Made by a program: the position numbers and the translations under genes
NCBI RefSeq assembly: GCF_030013205.1
Contig: NZ_CP122648.1
DNA from: Escherichia coli
GTDB taxonomy: Bacteria; Pseudomonadota; Gammaproteobacteria; Enterobacterales; Enterobacteriaceae
DNA: 64,000 bases
Direction: 5' to 3' (one strand)
Notes under the pieces: generated by a model
Databases searched by the model: none
Told to the model about the DNA's origin: nothing
What the model saw: only the letters and a program-made list of their open reading frames with translations
Shown here: positions 1-52,483 of the stretch, one piece after another
How positions within the stretch are numbered: position 1 is the first letter of the stretch
Layout of the letters: each line of letters starts with the position of its first letter

Positions 1-78
1 TCCGCCGGACAGCTTAATTAATTCCTTACTTGGCCGGTTTAAGTCAGCCACGATCCGGCCTTTTTTCAGGAGCTGAAT

Positions 79-1026
79 ATGAAAACACTACCTCCAGTCG
101 CACTAGGTACATGGTCCTGGGGCACAGGCTTTGCCGGCGGCGACACCGTCTTTGGTAATCATCTTTCTGATACTCAGATGGCAGAAGTGTTCACTGCGGC
201 CATGAGTAAGGGCCTCAATCTCTGGGATACCGCAGCAGTATATGGTATGGGGAGTTCCGAGACTGCGCTGGGAGCATTAGTCCATCAGTTTCCCCGCGAG
301 AACATAATTTTATCCACCAAATTCACGCCGCAGATTGCGGACAAGCAGTCTGCGCAGCCTGTCAGCGATATGCTTGAGGCCAGCCTTGGGCGCTTGGGCG
401 TGGACGCGATTGATATCTACTGGATCCATAATCCCCTCGACGTCGAAAAATGGACGCCAGGATTGATCCCACTTTTACAAAACGGTAAGGTAAAACGCGT
501 AGGTGTTTCCAACCACAATCTGGCACAAATCAGACGCGCCAATGAAATCCTTAACGCTTCCGGTTATTCCCTCAGTGCAGTACAAAATCACTACAGCCTG
601 CTCTATCGCGCTTCTGAAGAGGCCGGGATCCTTGATTATTGCCGACAAAATAACATCACGTTCTTTGCTTACATGGTCCTGGAGCAAGGCGCGCTCAGTG
701 GTCGTTATGATTCAAATCATCCCATGCCTGCCGGGAGTGGCCGGGCCGAAAGTTATAACGCAGTACTGCCGCAGATAGAAAGACTAACTGCCGCCATGAA
801 AAAAATGGGAGCCGAAAGGAATGCCAGCGTGGCACAGATAGCCATCGCATGGGCTATTGCGAAAGGTACCCTTCCCCTCGTTGGTGCGACTAAAGTCCAT
901 CACGTTCTGGACGCCGCCTGCGCTTCAGACATCCAGTTACGCGATGAGGAAATCATCCTGCTGGAACAACTCGCCGCAGAGACCAGAGTGGATACACGAG
1001 GCGCCTGGGAAAAACCGATGGTGTAA
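79..1026 (+). CDS. Aldo-keto reductase family oxidoreductase (315 aa)
   Basis: ORF translation has AKR hallmarks (N-terminal GTWSWG motif, TIM-barrel-length product); AGGAG Shine-Dalgarno about 8 nt upstream of ATG. Confidence 0.8.
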   Translation: MKTLPPVALGTWSWGTGFAGGDTVFGNHLSDTQMAEVFTAAMSKGLNLWDTAAVYGMGSSETALGALVHQFPRENIILSTKFTPQIADKQSAQPVSDMLEASLGRLGVDAIDIYWIHNPLDVEKWTPGLIPLLQNGKVKRVGVSNHNLAQIRRANEILNASGYSLSAVQNHYSLLYRASEEAGILDYCRQNNITFFAYMVLEQGALSGRYDSNHPMPAGSGRAESYNAVLPQIERLTAAMKKMGAERNASVAQIAIAWAIAKGTLPLVGATKVHHVLDAACASDIQLRDEEIILLEQLAAETRVDTRGAWEKPMV

Positions 1027-1128
1027 AGCCCGTCCGGAACAGACTGTCATGAATGACACACACGAACGGGCTGTTCCGGGTGATTCTAATCTGTATCACT
1101 TTTACTGCTTTGTATGAATGGTGAGAAT

Positions 1129-1805
1129 ATGAAAATCATTTGCCTCGAAGAACATTATCTCGACAGCGAGTTAGGGCGAGCGTGTATGCCTGTTGCGCTT
1201 GAGCAGGCACCTTTCCTTGGCGACTGGGGGAAAACCGTCGCTGATGGTCATAATCCTGACCGACTCCCTGCTTTCCCGCTTTAATAAACTGAATGTGCCA
1301 CTCTATCTTCATCCCGGGTTACCGCTTAAAAGCGTACAGCAGGCCTACTTCACGGGCTTCAGCGCAGAGGTCAACGCCAGGCTTTCTATGTTTGCCTGGG
1401 GCTGGCATCACGAAGCGGGGATCCATTTGTTGCGGCTGATGTTATCGGGCGCATTTGATAAATATCCCAACCTGCAGGTAATCAGTGGCCACTGGGGGGA
1501 GATGTTACCCTTCTGGCTCCAGCGTCTTGATGACAGCCTACCACTGGCTGCAACGGGTCTGTCACGCACGCTAACGAGAACCTTCCAGGAACACGTTTAC
1601 GTTACCCCGCCATATGCTAACACTGCCGCACTTCCAGTTTATCTACGCGTTAATGGGTGCTGAAAGGATCCTGTTCTCCGTCGATTATCCCTATCAGACC
1701 CTGGACGGTGTAAAAACCTTTATAGACAGTCTGCCCGTCAACAAGGCTGAAAAAGAGGCCATCGCATTTCGCAATGCAGAACGTTTACTGGGCATCACGG
1801 CGTAG
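1129..1805 (+). pseudogene. Amidohydrolase-2 (ACMSD-like metal-dependent hydrolase) gene, fragmented across three reading frames
   Basis: Short N-terminal ORF from ATG 1129 stops after about 50 codons; homologous segments continue in ORFs 1193..1663 and 1614..1805 in other frames; total span about 225 codons versus about 300 expected. Confidence 0.5.
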
Positions 1806-47892: not shown

Positions 47893-48546
47893 TTATATCC
47901 CTTCTTCACTCTCTTTTTTCGCTTCTGCCTTCTCGATTTCACGATACCAGCGCGGATGGTGTTTCTTCGCCCAGCGACGGCTCACCTTCCCTTCGATCAT
48001 CCCTTTAATCGATCCTTTCACCCAGAAAGCCATATACATATGGATCAGGATGGCGTGGATCAGGATGATACCCGCAGCCGCATGGATCAGCAGGCTATAA
48101 CGGACAACCTGTATCGGGAAGTACTGCGCAAAGTACGGACGCCAGATAATCACCCCGGTCACCAGCAGCACGAAAATCATGCTCATGATTGACCAGAACA
48201 TCATCTTTTGCCCGGCGTTGTACTTACCGACATCCGCCACTTTGTGCTCATTGCCTTTTAATACTTCGACAATGTTCAACAGCCACGGAATATCTTTCTT
48301 ATCCGGGATGTTGTGATGCACAAAACGCACAAACATAAACATCAGCGCGACGAAAATCGCAATGCCGAAGAACGGGTGCAAAATGCGTCCCATCTGCGGC
48401 GTACCGAAGGTTTGCGTCAGCCATTGCAGCGTCGGGAAGAAGAACGAAATCCCGGACAGCGCCACCAGGAAGAAGCAAATCACCACGGTCCAGTGACAGG
48501 CGCGATCAATAAATTTGGTGCGCACAATCATTTTCGACTTACTCAT
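47893..48546 (-). CDS. fdnI: Formate dehydrogenase-N gamma subunit (cytochrome b556, 217 aa)
   Basis: Membrane protein with conserved His residues; start at the internal Met [12 protein letters not shown]. Confidence 0.9.
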
Positions 48547-49423
48547 GATGATCCTCCTCGTCATCGTCCACTTCCTTATTCGGGCCAATACCGATGTAGT
48601 GGAAAATCAACCCGGCAAAAGTGGCAATAAAGCCAGCCGCTGCCAGCGGTTTCAACGCGCCTTTCCACAGGCTTACCGAGGTATCGATCTTCGGATCTTT
48701 CGGCAGACCGTGATACAGCTCCGGCTGATCGGCGTGATGCAGCACGTACATAACGTGCGTACCACCGACCCCTTCCGGGTTGTAGACGTCAGCATGTTCG
48801 TAACCACGCGCTTTCAGTTTCGCCACGCGCTGTTCCGCCAGCTCCAGCATCTCCTTCTTGGTGCCGAAGTGGATAGCCCCGGTCGGACAGGTTTTCACAC
48901 AAGCCGGTTCCTGGCCGACGCTGACGCGATCGACGCAGAGCGTGCATTTATATACCCGGTTATCCTCTTTGTTGAGGCGCGGAATATTAAACGGACACCC
49001 GGCAATGCAGTAACCACAGCCGATGCAGTTTTCCGACTGGAAATCGACAATCCCGTTAGCGTACTGAATGATTGCACCAGCAGACGGGCACGCCTTCAGG
49101 CAGCCCGGATCTTCACAGTGCATACAGCCGTCTTTACGGATCAGCCACTCCAGCTTGCCGTTCTGTTCGGTTTCGCTAAAGCGCATCACCGTCCAGGACT
49201 TGGCGCTCAGATCTGCGGGGTTATCGTAAACCCCGACGCAGTGCCCCACTTCATCACGGATGTCGTTCCACTCCGAACACGCCACCTGACAGGCTTTACA
49301 GCCGATACAGGTGGAAACGTCGATAAGTTTTGCGACTTCTGCTTTGTAATCACGCACCTGAGAAGGCGGCGTGATGGAGTTAGTTGCGGACCTTTTGATA
49401 ATGTCCTGCGTTTCCATAGCCAT
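48539..49423 (-). CDS. fdnH: Formate dehydrogenase-N beta subunit (4x[4Fe-4S], 294 aa)
   Basis: Four CxxCxxCxxxC ferredoxin motifs; overlaps the fdnI start by 8 nt. Confidence 0.9.
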
Positions 49424-49435
49424 CTGTTCGCCCCC

Positions 49436-52400
49436 TTACGCCTTCTCGATGTTGACTAAGAACGCTTTATATTCCGGCGTTTGCGAGTTTGCATCACCGA
49501 CATTCGGCGTCAGAGTGTTAGCGATATAACCTTTACGCGCGACACCCTCAAAGCCCCAGTGGATTGGAATACCCACCGTTTCAACCTGCTGACCGTTTAC
49601 ATTCAGCGGTTTCAGACGGCGCGTTACCACCGCCACCGCGCGGATAAAGCCACGCTTGCTTGAGACAGTGACACGATCGCCATTATTAATGCCTTTCGCC
49701 GCCGCCAGCGTTTCGCTGATTTCCACAAACTGTTCCGGCTGAGCAATTGCGTTGAGCAACGCGTGCTTGGTCCAGGTGTGGAAGTGCTCGGTCAGACGAT
49801 AGGTCGTACCCACATACGGGAACTGCTCTTTTTTACCCATCCGCAGCGCGTCTTGTTCATACAGACGAACGACCGGGTTAGACACCACGTTCGGATGCAG
49901 CGGGTTAGTGCCCAGCGGCGTTTCAATTGGCTCGTAGTGTTCCGGGAACGGACCTTCCGCCATTTTGTTGATGGCAAACAGGCGTCCCATCCCTTCCGGC
50001 TGCATGATAAACGGCCCGGTTGGCGTACCCGGCGCGGCATTGCCGAAGTCCGGAATATCGTTACCCGTCCACTTGCTGCCGTTCCACTGGATCAGCATCC
50101 GTTTCGGATCCCACGGTTTACCGCTGATATCCGCCGAAGCACGGTTGTAGAGTACGCGACGGTTGAGCGGCCACGCCCAGGCCCATCCCAGCGTATTCCC
50201 CAGACCGGACGGGTCGGAGTTATCGCGGTTAGCCATCTGGTTGCCCTGCTCTGTCCAGCTACCGGTGTAGATCCAGCAAGACGATGCGGTTGTACCGTCA
50301 TCACGCAGATGCGCAAAGCTACTCAGCAACTGACCTTTCTTCGCAATCAGCACGCCATTAGCATCATAGAGATCTTCCAGCGCATAGCCGTTATTCTCTT
50401 TCGCCACTTCGTCAGACTGCGGTTCGTGCGGCTGCTTGTAGTTCCAGCTCATCTTCATCAGCGGTTCTACGCCTTTACCACCTTCGGCCTGGTACAGCTC
50501 GCGCAGATGATGGTAGATACCCGCCAGAATTTCGCCGTCGTTACGCGCTTCGCCCGGCGCATCCTGACCTTTCCAGTGCCACTGCAACCAGCGACCGGAG
50601 TTAGCGATAGAACCATCTTCTTCAGCAAAGCAGGTCGAAGGCAGACGGAATACCTCAGTCTGAATAGACGCCGGATCGACATCGTTCGACTCGCCGTGGT
50701 TCTGCCAGAAGGTAGAAGTTTCAGTCACCAGCGGATCGATAACCACCATGTACTTCAGCTTGCTCAGGCAGCTCACCACTTTGTTTTTGTCCGGGAAGGA
50801 CGCAACCGGGTTAAAGCCCTGGCAGAAATAACCGGTGACTTTGCCTTCATCCATCATGTTGAAATACTTGATGACGTCGTAGGTCTGGTCCCACTTAGGC
50901 AGCCAGTCGTAGCCCCAGTTGTTCTCTTTCTGCGCGGCATCGCCGTAGAAAGATTTCATCAGGCTAACGAAGAACTTCGGATAGTTGCTCCAGTAGTTCA
51001 CCTGATCAGCCAGCGTCGCTTTCGGCGTGTTCGCTTCCAGATACGACTGCAAATCAACCTGTTTTTCTGACGGCAGCGTCAGATAACCTGGCAGGCTGGT
51101 AGAGAGCAGGCCTAAGTCAGTCAGGCCCTGAATGTTGGAGTGACCACGCAATGCGTTCACGCCGCCACCAGCCATACCCATGTTACCGAGCAGCAATTGG
51201 ATCATCGCCATGGTGCGGATGTTCTGCGCACCCACGGTGTGCTGCGTCCAGCCCAGCGCGTACAGGAAGGTGGTGGTGCGATCCGGCGCGCTGGTGGAGG
51301 CCAGCACTTCACACACTTTCAGGAAGTCGGCTTTTGGCGTACCGCAGATGTTTTCTACTACATCCGGCGTGTAGCGGGAAACGTGCTCTTTCAGCAGGTT
51401 CCACACACAGCGCGGATGAGTCAGTGTTTCATCGCGTTTCGCATAGCCGTTTTCATCGAACTGATAGTTCCAGGACGATTTATCGTACTGGCGTTTTTCA
51501 GCGTCGTAGCCGCTGAACAGACCGTCTTCGAAAGCAAAATCATCACGCACCAGCAGGCTGGCATTGGTGTAATGCTTAACGTATTCGGCATTGATTTTGT
51601 TGTTTTCGATCAGGTAGCGCAAAACGCCAGACAGGAACGTAATGTCCGTACCGGAACGAATAGGTGCGTAAATATCCGCTACAGAAGCGGTACGCGTAAA
51701 ACGGGGATCGACAACGATCAAGGTTGCATCGTTGTTGTTTTTCGCTTCCATCGCCCAGCGGAAACCGACGGGATGCGCTTCAGCAGCGTTACCGCCCATC
51801 ACCATCACGACGTTAGCGTTTTTGATATCCACCCAGTGGTTGGTCATCGCACCGCGACCAAATGTTGGAGCAAGACTTGCTACCGTTGGTCCGTGTCAGA
51901 CGCGCGCCTGGTTGTCTACCGCCAGCATCCCGAGGGAGCGGGCAAATTTCTGGGTCAGCATCCCGGTTTCGTTGCTGGCACCGGAGGCACACAGCATACC
52001 GGTAGAAAGCCAACGGTTTACCGTTACGCCCTGCTCGTTCTTTTCAATAAAGTTAGCGTCACGGTCAGCTTTCATCAGCTTCGCAATACGGGAGAATGCT
52101 TCTTCCCAGCTAATGCGCTGCCATTTGTCAGAACCTGGCGCACGATATTCCGGGTAGCGCAGACGGTTTTCGCTGTTGACGTAATCCAGCAAACCGGCCC
52201 CTTTCGGGCACAGCGCACCACGGCTTACCGGATGATCCGGGTCACCTTCAATGTGATAAATCGCTTCTCTGGCGTTTTTCGCGCCATCACCCAGGCTATA
52301 CATCAATAGCCCGCAACCTACGGAACAGTATGTGCAGGTGTTACGGATCTCTTTAGCGCGTAATAATTTGTAGTTTCGCGCCTGAGCCAGTGCTTGCTTT

Positions 52401-52483
52401 GGGGCAAAGCCCAATGCCGCTACTGTTGTTCCAGCCATACCGCCCGCGCAGATTTTAAAAAATTGTCTGCGACTGACGTCCAT
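49436..52483 (-). CDS. fdnG: Formate dehydrogenase-N alpha subunit, selenoprotein with in-frame UGA at codon 196 (1015 aa)
   Basis: Two adjacent same-frame minus-strand ORFs (51896..52483 and 49436..51847) separated by TGA at 51896..51898; Tat-type N-terminus MDVSRRQFFK; sequence across the UGA reads ...QARV-U-HGPTVASLAPTFGRG. Confidence 0.9.
51855..51895 (-). other. Putative SECIS hairpin directly 3' of the fdnG UGA
   Basis: mRNA segment downstream of UGA contains the small hairpin AGCAAG-UC-UUGCU at the distance expected for a bacterial SECIS. Confidence 0.55.

What the first reader, a model, noticed from the sequence alone, without database searches (positions are those of the whole stretch)
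51855..51898. Selenocysteine recoding site in fdnG
An in-frame TGA sits at codon 196 between two same-frame ORF segments and is followed by a hairpin-forming sequence, the hallmark of Sec incorporation. Naive ORF callers would split this gene.
Basis: partly seen in the sequence, partly recalled or inferred. Interest (0 to 1): 0.3.

Follow-up and report, generated by a model that had tools for sequence, protein, structure and literature searches.

The report
Known selenocysteine UGA in fdnG
The in-frame TGA is the well-known selenocysteine codon (Sec196) of the Escherichia coli nitrate-inducible formate dehydrogenase gene fdnG, followed by its textbook SECIS hairpin; it is real and correctly read, but ordinary.

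Summary
On the minus strand, a 1015-codon frame (52483..49436) has one internal TGA, at codon 196 (window 51896-51898). A mechanical ORF caller splits it into same-frame ORFs of 195 and 803 aa.

The gene is E. coli fdnG. It is 100% identical to fdnG of porcine E. coli strains. Its protein differs at 3 residues from the solved FDH-N alpha subunit (PDB 1KQF), which carries the non-standard residue at 196.

The 59 nt around the TGA (51843-51901) match Rfam SECIS_3 at 84.3 bits against a threshold of 63. This is the only Rfam hit in the window. The fold has an 11-nt spacer, a bulged U17, and G23 and U24 in the apical loop.

Fold energy alone is unremarkable (z = -1.45). The support comes from conservation:
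- The block is 59/59 identical in seven other Enterobacterales genera, although the flanks are 70-87% identical.
- It lies inside the longest identical run (71 nt) between fdnG and fdoG.
- Its apical helix shows two compensatory pairs in more distant orthologues.
- Three Cys-codon homologues fall below the Rfam threshold.

The feature is already known.

The parts
49436..52483 (-). fdnG, alpha (catalytic) subunit of formate dehydrogenase-N. 1015 codons plus a TAA stop, read through one internal UGA.
   Evidence: Translation. 100% identical to annotated fdnG. TIGR01553 at 1622.7 bits against a cut-off of 814.2. Full-length match to PDB 1KQF_A with 3 substitutions: F342L, A666S, S787N.
51896..51898 (-). 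UGA codon 196, decoded as selenocysteine (Sec196).
   Evidence: The only internal stop in the frame. It aligns with residue X196 of 1KQF_A. It is TGA in 14 orthologues and TGT/TGC (Cys) in 3 homologues at the same column.
51843..51901 (-). Bacterial SECIS element: a full-length match to Rfam RF01989 SECIS_3, including the UGA.
   Evidence: 84.3 bits against a gathering score of 63, E = 1.8e-20, model positions 1-59 of 59. 59/59 nt identical in 8 sequences from seven other Enterobacterales genera.
51867..51884 (-). Apical mini-hairpin, the inferred SelB-binding part. It covers nt 15-32 counting U of UGA as 1: GG-U-AGCAA / GUC / UUGCU-CC. Bulged U17 is at 51882. Loop residues G23 and U24 are at 51876 and 51875.
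   Evidence: The MFE structure and the Rfam consensus structure agree on it. All 7 pairs are paired in all 6 distinct sequences, and 2 pairs change by compensation. The features match the E. coli SECIS description in PMC8659212.
51851..51896 (-). Lower stem of the SECIS. The spacer nt 3-13 pairs with nt 38-48, so part of the UGA and the 11-nt spacer are included.
   Evidence: MFE fold. This helix is less well supported than the apical one: 87% of cells are paired and no pair is compensatory, and the window's own pairing is shifted by one register from the Rfam consensus.
51896..52483 (-). N-terminal segment (codons 1-195 plus UGA), which a naive ORF caller reports as a separate 195-aa ORF. It starts with a twin-arginine motif (SRRQFFK, residues 4-10) and holds the Cys cluster CxxCxxxC.
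   Evidence: the ORF listing and the translation. Reading these motifs as a Tat signal and a 4Fe-4S site is an inference from the sequence motifs and the 1KQF match.
48539..49423 (-). fdnH, the beta (Fe-S) subunit and next gene of the operon.
   Evidence: ORF. Annotation of the collinear strain.
47893..48546 (-). fdnI, the gamma (cytochrome b) subunit and last gene of the operon.
   Evidence: ORF 47893..48588. The annotated start in the collinear strain corresponds to 48546.

Best explanation
Window 51896-51898 (minus strand) is the UGA that encodes selenocysteine 196 of E. coli FdnG, the molybdopterin-containing catalytic subunit of nitrate-inducible formate dehydrogenase-N. The mRNA immediately 3' of the UGA, inside the reading frame, forms the bacterial SECIS hairpin. 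Its apical stem-loop starts 11 nt after the UGA and presents a bulged U17 and loop residues G23 and U24. The mechanism is inferred from established knowledge of the E. coli sel system. The specialised elongation factor SelB, carrying Sec-tRNA(Sec) (selC product, anticodon UCA, charged through SelA and SelD), binds this apical loop. SelB then delivers the tRNA to the ribosomal A site when the UGA arrives there. It outcompetes release factor 2, so translation continues to the full 1015-residue protein. Without selenium or SelB, translation would end at a 195-residue fragment. Shown here: the frame, the codon, gene identity, the SECIS model match, the structural hallmarks, nucleotide-level constraint, covariation, and the near-universal presence of selAB and selC in E. 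coli. Taken from the literature: SelB binding and actual Sec insertion.
For: - Frame and codon: there is one in-frame TGA at codon 196, with the same frame on both sides.
- Gene identity: the sequence is 100% identical to annotated fdnG, a single CDS in RefSeq. It matches PDB 1KQF_A over 1-1015 with X at 196. It scores 1622.7 bits on TIGR01553.
- SECIS model: Rfam SECIS_3 scores 84.3 bits against a threshold of 63, E = 1.8e-20, the only Rfam hit in the window. K-12 fdnG and fdoG give the same score, and fdhF gives SECIS_2 at 87.1 bits.
- Structural hallmarks: an 11-nt spacer, an unpaired U17, G23 and U24 in the loop, MFE -14.6 kcal/mol. These meet the E. coli SECIS description (PMC8659212) and the general bSECIS criteria (PMC13188914).
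- Constraint at the RNA level: fdnG and fdoG are 74.6% identical in nucleotides, yet their longest identical run (71 nt) begins at codon 195.
- Across genera: eight sequences from seven other Enterobacterales genera are 59/59 identical in the block. Outside it, nucleotide identity is 70-87%, and only 49-64% of identical residues use the same codon, against 20/20 inside.
- Covariation: the apical helix is 100% paired in 6 distinct sequences, with two compensatory pairs (A-U to G-C, and A-U to C-G). Structures slid by 1-3 columns pair only 24-49% of cells.
- Natural control: all 14 TGA-bearing orthologues score 78-86 bits. The 3 homologues with TGT/TGC at that codon score 35.7-44.7 bits, below threshold.
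- Trans factors: selAB is present in 5425 of 5426 complete E. coli genomes and selC in 5424 of 5426.
- Literature: Berg et al. 1991 (J Biol Chem 266:22380 and 22386) showed that the fdnG UGA encodes Sec and needs the mRNA stem-loop. I know these papers only as cited in PMC13188914.
Against: Nothing contradicts this reading, but four weaknesses remain.

- The hairpin's free energy is not significantly better than that of shuffled sequences (z = -1.45).
- The lower stem has mismatches against the Rfam consensus pairing and shows no compensatory change.
- The covariation sample is small (6 distinct sequences), and the encoded peptide is itself highly conserved active-site sequence, so part of the conservation is protein-level.
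- The window holds no sel genes and no tRNA gene. The presence of the machinery in the source genome is therefore inferred from the species, not seen.
Confidence: 0.98

Rival explanations
1. The TGA is a true stop. The locus is then a pseudogene, or two separate genes of 195 aa and 803 aa, and the downstream hairpin is incidental.
For: A mechanical ORF list gives two ORFs. One GenBank record annotates the homologous gene as two CDSs. Hairpin stability alone is within the range of shuffles.
Against: The TGA and its surroundings are at least 99% identical in 5368 of 5433 E. coli records. The TGA is kept in 14 orthologues spanning gamma-, beta- and alphaproteobacteria, where other homologues have Cys. 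The solved structure 1KQF is one continuous 1015-residue chain with the non-standard residue at 196. RefSeq annotates one CDS. A null mutation would not be fixed across a species and across genera.
Confidence: 0.01
2. The UGA is read through, but the nucleotide conservation downstream reflects only selection on the active-site peptide (U-H-G-P-T-V-A-S-L-A-P-T-F-G-R-G-A-M-T). The RNA structure would have no role.
For: The encoded peptide is almost invariant, even in Cys-type homologues. That alone explains much of the conservation at first and second codon positions.
Against: Synonymous sites are frozen only where the codon is TGA. In Enterobacterales Sec-type genes, 20/20 codons in the block are identical, against 49-64% in the flanks. 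In the Cys-type homologues, which encode nearly the same peptide, only 7/17, 9/15 and 7/14 codons are identical, and they fall below the Rfam threshold. The changes seen in distant Sec-type orthologues are compensatory in the apical helix. Berg, Baron and Stewart 1991 reported that the stem-loop is essential (cited).
Confidence: 0.01

Closest known systems
E. coli K-12 fdnG Sec196 UGA and its SECIS (Rfam RF01989 SECIS_3; Berg et al. 1991; PDB 1KQF)
   Same: It is the same gene and the same element. No nucleotide differs between gene positions 400 and 755, a stretch that contains the whole recoding region. The Rfam score is identical at 84.3 bits. The codon number is the same, and so is the operon and its neighbourhood.
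   Different: There is only strain-level variation elsewhere in the gene: 50 nucleotide differences and 3 amino-acid differences from K-12, namely F342L, A666S and S787N.
E. coli fdoG (formate dehydrogenase-O alpha subunit) Sec196 recoding site
   Same: Paralogue with the UGA at the same codon number. A 71-nt stretch that begins in codon 195 and holds the UGA and SECIS is identical. The SECIS_3 score is the same.
   Different: The rest of the gene is 74.6% identical in nucleotides and 76.9% in amino acids. It sits at a different locus (fdoGHI-fdhE, next to fdhD).
E. coli fdhF (formate dehydrogenase-H) Sec140 SECIS, the reference bacterial SECIS (Rfam RF01988 SECIS_2)
   Same: The architecture is the same: UGACACGG..CC, an 11-nt spacer, the apical helix GGU-GCA, a bulged U17, and G23 and U24 in the loop. 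The SelB-dependent mechanism is the same according to the literature.
   Different: fdhF has a 4-nt GGUC loop and a 17-nt mini-hairpin. fdnG has a 3-nt GUC loop closed by an extra A22-U26 pair, giving 18 nt. The lower stems differ. The window scores only 28.8 bits on SECIS_2 against a threshold of 70. The UGA is at codon 140 of a 715-residue cytoplasmic enzyme.
Cys-type FdnG homologues (E. coli IncF plasmid copy, Providencia, Paracoccus)
   Same: They belong to the same enzyme family and have nearly the same active-site peptide.
   Different: They have TGT or TGC in place of TGA. The SECIS is not kept: SECIS_3 scores 35.7-44.7 bits, below the threshold of 63, and synonymous sites are free to vary.

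Membership tests
Bacterial SECIS, E. coli FDH-N/FDH-O type (Rfam RF01989 SECIS_3) | Covariance-model score at or above the curated gathering threshold, over the full model length. | tested here: met
   84.3 bits against 63, model positions 1-59 of 59, E = 1.8e-20. It is the sole gathering-level hit in the window.
Bacterial SECIS, E. coli FDH-N/FDH-O type (Rfam RF01989 SECIS_3) | An in-frame UGA at the position occupied by Sec or Cys in homologues, with the hairpin immediately 3' inside the ORF. | tested here: met
   Codon 196 aligns with X196 of 1KQF_A. The same column holds TGA in 14 orthologues and TGT/TGC in 3 homologues. The hairpin starts within the spacer directly after the UGA.
Bacterial SECIS, E. 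coli FDH-N/FDH-O type (Rfam RF01989 SECIS_3) | The E. coli minimal SECIS: an apical stem-loop 11 nt after the UGA, a bulged U17, and G23 and U24 unpaired in the apical loop (as described in PMC8659212). | tested here: met
   The spacer is nt 4-14 (11 nt). The mini-hairpin is nt 15-32. U17 (51882) is unpaired, and G23 and U24 (51876, 51875) lie in the loop, in both the MFE fold and the Rfam consensus structure. The hairpin is 18 nt where fdhF has 17, because of the extra A22-U26 pair.
Bacterial SECIS, E. coli FDH-N/FDH-O type (Rfam RF01989 SECIS_3) | General bSECIS model (PMC13188914): a loop of 3-9 nt, an upper stem of 4-16 bp, a G in the first two loop positions, 16-37 nt between the UGA and the loop, and MFE of -7.5 kcal/mol or lower. 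| tested here: met
   The loop is GUC (3 nt) with G first. The upper stem has 7 bp. There are 19 nt between the UGA and the loop. MFE is -14.6 kcal/mol.
Bacterial SECIS, E. coli FDH-N/FDH-O type (Rfam RF01989 SECIS_3) | The structure is supported by covariation or by conservation beyond coding constraint. | tested here: met
   The apical helix is 100% paired with 2 compensatory pairs, and slid controls pair 24-49% of cells. Synonymous sites are frozen in Sec-type homologues but not in Cys-type ones. The sample is small (6 distinct sequences), and the lower helix shows no compensatory change.
Bacterial SECIS, E. coli FDH-N/FDH-O type (Rfam RF01989 SECIS_3) | The element binds SelB and directs Sec insertion in vivo. 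| not testable with these tools
   This has been established experimentally for the identical K-12 sequence (Berg et al. 1991, as cited in PMC13188914; Sec in the crystal structure 1KQF).
Bacterial SECIS, E. coli FDH-N/FDH-O type (Rfam RF01989 SECIS_3) | The host encodes the sel machinery (selA, selB, selC, selD). | tested here: inconclusive
   None of these genes lies in the window, which has no tRNA gene at all. At species level, selAB is in 5425 of 5426 complete E. coli genomes and selC in 5424 of 5426. selD was not searched. The source genome itself is not available.
Formate dehydrogenase-N alpha subunit FdnG (NCBIfam TIGR01553; Mo-bis-MGD oxidoreductases) | Equivalog HMM score above the curated cut-off over the full length. 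| tested here: met
   1622.7 bits against 814.2, residues 2-1014 on profile positions 1-1009. The query had C in place of U because the tool rejects U.
Formate dehydrogenase-N alpha subunit FdnG (NCBIfam TIGR01553; Mo-bis-MGD oxidoreductases) | It is fdnG and not the paralogue fdoG: near-identity to K-12 FdnG and the fdnGHI locus context. | tested here: met
   3 aa differences from K-12 FdnG / 1KQF_A, against 76.9% aa identity to FdoG. fdnH and fdnI lie downstream, yddG is divergent upstream, and yddM-adhP-maeA lie beyond.
Formate dehydrogenase-N alpha subunit FdnG (NCBIfam TIGR01553; Mo-bis-MGD oxidoreductases) | A twin-arginine signal and an N-terminal 4Fe-4S cysteine motif. | tested here: met
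   Residues 4-10 read SRRQFFK. The motifs C-T-Y-C-S-V-G-C and a later C-P-K-G are visible in the translation. Their function is inferred from the match to 1KQF.

The most novel reading that the evidence does not exclude
The invariant block is longer than the minimal SelB-binding hairpin. It is 59/59 identical across seven other Enterobacterales genera, and it lies within a 71-nt run shared by fdnG and fdoG. The block includes the lower stem and about 10-20 nt 3' of the hairpin that are unpaired in the Rfam model. This extra invariance might reflect a further function. Candidates are tuning of recoding efficiency, ribosome pausing or RF2 competition, or recurrent gene conversion between fdnG and fdoG confined to the recoding site. 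My data do not separate these from simple dual RNA-plus-protein constraint.
Probability: 0.2. Interest if true: 0.25.

Novelty: already known. Interest (0 to 1): 0.04.

Why it matters
The finding matters only for annotation quality. The codon must be marked as selenocysteine (a translation exception), or else fdnG is split into two spurious ORFs. That error exists in public records: CP022659.1 names the N-terminal piece a 'sulfate ABC transporter substrate-binding protein'. Biologically, Sec196 is the molybdenum ligand of the respiratory formate dehydrogenase used during anaerobic nitrate respiration. This has been established since 1991 for the genetics and 2002 for the structure. Nothing new is learned about recoding.

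Tried and rejected
- Thermodynamic significance of the hairpin. z = -1.45, with 19 of 200 shuffles as good. I do not use it as evidence.
- SECIS_2, the fdhF-type family. The window scores only 28.8 bits against a threshold of 70, so the element belongs to SECIS_3 and not SECIS_2.
- Pseudogene or two-gene reading. Rejected because the TGA is conserved across 5425 genomes and 14 orthologues, and because of the 1KQF chain.
- Purely protein-level conservation. Rejected using the Cys-type homologues as a natural control.
- Sel machinery in the window. There is no tRNA gene and no sel genes among the annotated neighbours.
Protein tools rejected a sequence containing 'U' or '*', so I substituted C at 196 for the database scans.
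- Assumed full collinearity of the window with strain CFSAN018748. This was wrong: the window differs by an IS1 insertion, an IS91 junction and its left end.
- Large scans. I did not run the costly genome or metagenome scans, because the plasmid/chromid collection already gave orthologues from three proteobacterial classes.
Full report
**1. The observation**

The feature lies on the minus strand. Translating window 52483..49436 (-) gives 1016 codons. There is a single internal stop at codon 196, and the frame ends in TAA. The internal stop is TGA at window 51896-51898.

A mechanical ORF list reports two minus-strand ORFs. One is 51896..52483 (195 aa). The other is 49436..51847 (803 aa, starting at an internal ATG). 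They are in the same frame, because 52483-51847 = 636 = 212x3. The frame is open directly after the TGA.

So is the remark that a naive ORF caller splits the gene.

**2. What the gene is**

- The 3048-nt frame is 100% identical to the RefSeq-annotated fdnG of several porcine E. coli strains.
- A match covering at least 80% of it is present in 5425 of 5426 complete E. coli genomes.
- RefSeq annotates it as one CDS, 'formate dehydrogenase-N subunit alpha'. It is followed by fdnH and fdnI and preceded by the divergent yddG.
- In the window, fdnH is 48539..49423 (-) and fdnI is 47893..48546 (-).
- With C substituted for the stop, the protein scores 1622.7 bits on NCBIfam TIGR01553, against a cut-off of 814.2.
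- It aligns over residues 1-1015 with PDB 1KQF chain A, 'formate dehydrogenase, nitrate-inducible, major subunit'. That sequence has the non-standard residue X at position 196.
- Against K-12 fdnG there are 50 nucleotide and 3 amino-acid differences. None lies between gene positions 400 and 755, so the recoding region is identical to that of K-12.
- Against the paralogue FdoG, identity is only 76.9% in amino acids. The gene is therefore fdnG and not fdoG.

**3. The RNA element**

The 59 nt at window 51843-51901 (-) match Rfam RF01989 (SECIS_3) over the whole model. The score is 84.3 bits against a gathering score of 63, with E = 1.8e-20. It is the only family to reach its gathering score anywhere in the 64 kb.

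I number from the U of UGA as position 1. The minimum-free-energy fold and the Rfam consensus structure agree on these features:

- an 11-nt spacer (nt 4-14);
- an apical hairpin at nt 15-32, GG-U-AGCAA / GUC / UUGCU-CC (window 51884..51867);
- an unpaired U17 (51882);
- G23 and U24 (51876, 51875) in the loop.

These are the features given for the E. coli SECIS in the review PMC8659212. It describes an upper stem-loop 11 nt from the UGA, a bulged U17, and G23/U24 in the apical loop, with U17 and G23 as the SelB contacts.

The element also meets the general bSECIS criteria listed in PMC13188914. Its loop is 3 nt with G first, its upper stem is 7 bp, there are 19 nt between the UGA and the loop, and its MFE is -14.6 kcal/mol.

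One caveat applies. Fold stability alone is not distinctive: z = -1.45, and 19 of 200 shuffles fold at least as well.

The lower stem is the weaker part. In the window it pairs one register away from the Rfam consensus.

**4. Is it more than chance or coding constraint?**

Four independent lines say yes.

(a) *Paralogue comparison.* fdnG (window) and fdoG (K-12) are 74.6% identical in nucleotides. Only 60% of identical residues use the same codon. Yet their longest identical run, 71 nt, starts in codon 195 and covers the UGA and the SECIS. The next longest run is 35 nt.

(b) *Orthologues.* A tblastn search of the plasmid/chromid collection gave FdnG homologues from gamma-, beta- and alphaproteobacteria, and I fetched 17 of them. 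Eight sequences come from seven other Enterobacterales genera: Salmonella (two), Klebsiella, Yersinia, Enterobacter, Plesiomonas, Citrobacter and Proteus.

| Measure (eight Enterobacterales sequences) | Inside the 59-nt block | In the flanks |
|---|---|---|
| Nucleotide identity to the window | 59/59 | 70-87% |
| Identical residues using the same codon | 20/20 | 49-64% |

(c) *Covariation.* The analysis used six distinct Sec-type sequences: the Enterobacterales type, Paraburkholderia, Burkholderia/Caballeronia, Shinella, Ensifer and Pseudomonas putida (alignment; counts below).

- The apical helix is paired in 100% of cells.
- Two of its pairs change by compensation (21-33 A-U to G-C, and 24-30 A-U to C-G).
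- Structures slid by 1-3 columns pair only 24-49% of cells.
- The sample is small, and the lower helix shows only one-sided changes and some mismatches.

(d) *Natural negative control.* Three homologues carry TGT or TGC (Cys) at the same codon: an E. coli IncF-plasmid copy, Providencia and Paracoccus. They encode almost the same peptide.

| Group | SECIS_3 score (threshold 63) | Identical codons in the block |
|---|---|---|
| 14 TGA-bearing orthologues | 78-86 bits | 20/20 in the eight Enterobacterales sequences; 8-11 of 19-20 in the four more distant ones tested |
| 3 Cys-codon homologues | 35.7-44.7 bits | 7/17, 9/15 and 7/14 |

Within E. coli, the 81-nt region is at least 99% identical in 5368 of 5433 records. 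The one variant I inspected lies in the fdoG copy. It is a synonymous CAC to CAT change that turns a C-G pair of the lower stem into U-G.

**5.

K-12 fdoG gives the same SECIS_3 score of 84.3 bits. K-12 fdhF instead matches the sister family SECIS_2 (87.1 bits), with its UGA at codon 140.

fdhF and fdnG share UGACACGG, the 11-nt spacer, the GGU-GCA helix with bulged U17, and G23 and U24. They differ in three ways. fdhF has a GGUC loop where fdnG has GUC closed by an extra A-U pair. The lower stems differ. The window scores only 28.8 bits on SECIS_2.

**6. Mechanism**

Shown here:

- the codon and its frame;
- the gene's identity;
- the hairpin's hallmarks;
- nucleotide-level constraint that appears only when the codon is TGA;
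- near-universal presence in E. coli of selAB (5425 of 5426 genomes) and selC (5424 of 5426).

Inferred from established knowledge of the E. coli sel system:

- SelB, bound to GTP and Sec-tRNA(Sec), binds the apical loop through U17 and G23/U24.
- It delivers the tRNA to the A-site UGA in competition with RF2.
- The result is full-length FdnG, in which Sec196 ligates the molybdenum.

The sources for these steps are Berg, Li, Heider and Stewart 1991 and Berg, Baron and Stewart 1991, as cited in PMC13188914. The others are the review PMC8659212 and PDB 1KQF. The window holds no tRNA gene and no sel genes, so the machinery is encoded elsewhere in the genome.

**7. Rivals**

A true stop or pseudogene is excluded by conservation of the TGA across the species and across classes, and by the continuous crystal-structure chain. 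The idea that conservation reflects only the peptide is excluded by the Cys-type control and by the compensatory changes.

**8. Verdict**

The feature is already known and is annotated routinely by RefSeq. Interest is very low.

One mildly open point remains. The invariant block (59-71 nt) is longer than the minimal SelB-binding hairpin. My data cannot separate an added functional constraint, gene conversion between fdnG and fdoG, or simple dual RNA-plus-protein constraint.

**9. Context noticed on the way**

The window comes from an E. coli chromosome of the porcine ETEC/O139 type. It is largely collinear with strain CFSAN018748, apart from:

- an IS1 insertion in yddA;
- an IS91-like element that truncates narZ;
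- a different left end.

Noticed in passing
window ~21261-22028: A 768-bp IS1 copy is inserted in the ABC-transporter gene yddA. The flanks overlap by about 8 bp in the uninterrupted reference, which is consistent with a target-site duplication. Forty-one of 5426 genomes hold a match covering at least 80% of the 1301-nt query that spans the insertion.
   Followed up: partly
window ~62298-64000: narZ (nitrate reductase Z alpha subunit) is truncated at about 62298 by an IS91-like element. Its ORFs lie at about 62383-62748 and 62748-63935. In the matching strains an RHS fragment follows where the rest of narZ and narYWV would be. Only 6 of 5426 genomes share the junction; the five listed are all porcine ETEC.
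   Followed up: partly
window 1-1596: The left end is not collinear with strain CFSAN018748. The segment holds aldo/keto reductase, amidohydrolase and NAD(P)H oxidoreductase genes, and is found in only 479 of 5426 E. coli genomes.
   Followed up: partly
window 53855-54955 (+): An intact 366-aa porin gene lies between yddG and the LRR-protein gene. RefSeq annotates it as ompC in the identical strain. K-12 has only the short yddL fragment at this place.
   Followed up: no
L016 (CP022659.1 39129-39785): This public GenBank record splits the homologous Salmonella fdnG at the UGA. It names the 195-codon N-terminal piece 'sulfate ABC transporter substrate-binding protein'.
   Followed up: yes
L018 (NZ_CP042296.1 27209-27865) and hits H65-H74: A third, Cys-type (TGT) fdnG homologue, 73% identical over the 199-aa query, is carried on conjugative IncF plasmids of 167-242 kb in E. 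coli and Escherichia sp. It has no functional-looking SECIS (SECIS_3 at 44.7 bits).
   Followed up: partly
window 51831-51901 (-), compared with L002 and L010-L017: The recoding block is invariant well beyond the minimal hairpin. A 71-nt run is identical between fdnG and fdoG, and 59/59 nt are identical across seven other Enterobacterales genera, including about 10 nt that are unpaired in the Rfam model. The data do not separate dual coding constraint, gene conversion or an extra function.
   Followed up: partly
L003 912-1432 (K-12, between yjcO and gltP; not in the window): Five tandem matches to Rfam naRNA4 (REP-derived nucleoid-associated RNA) lie in the yjcO-gltP intergenic region, about 0.8 kb beyond the 3' end of fdhF in K-12. 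I saw them only because that locus was fetched for comparison.
   Followed up: no
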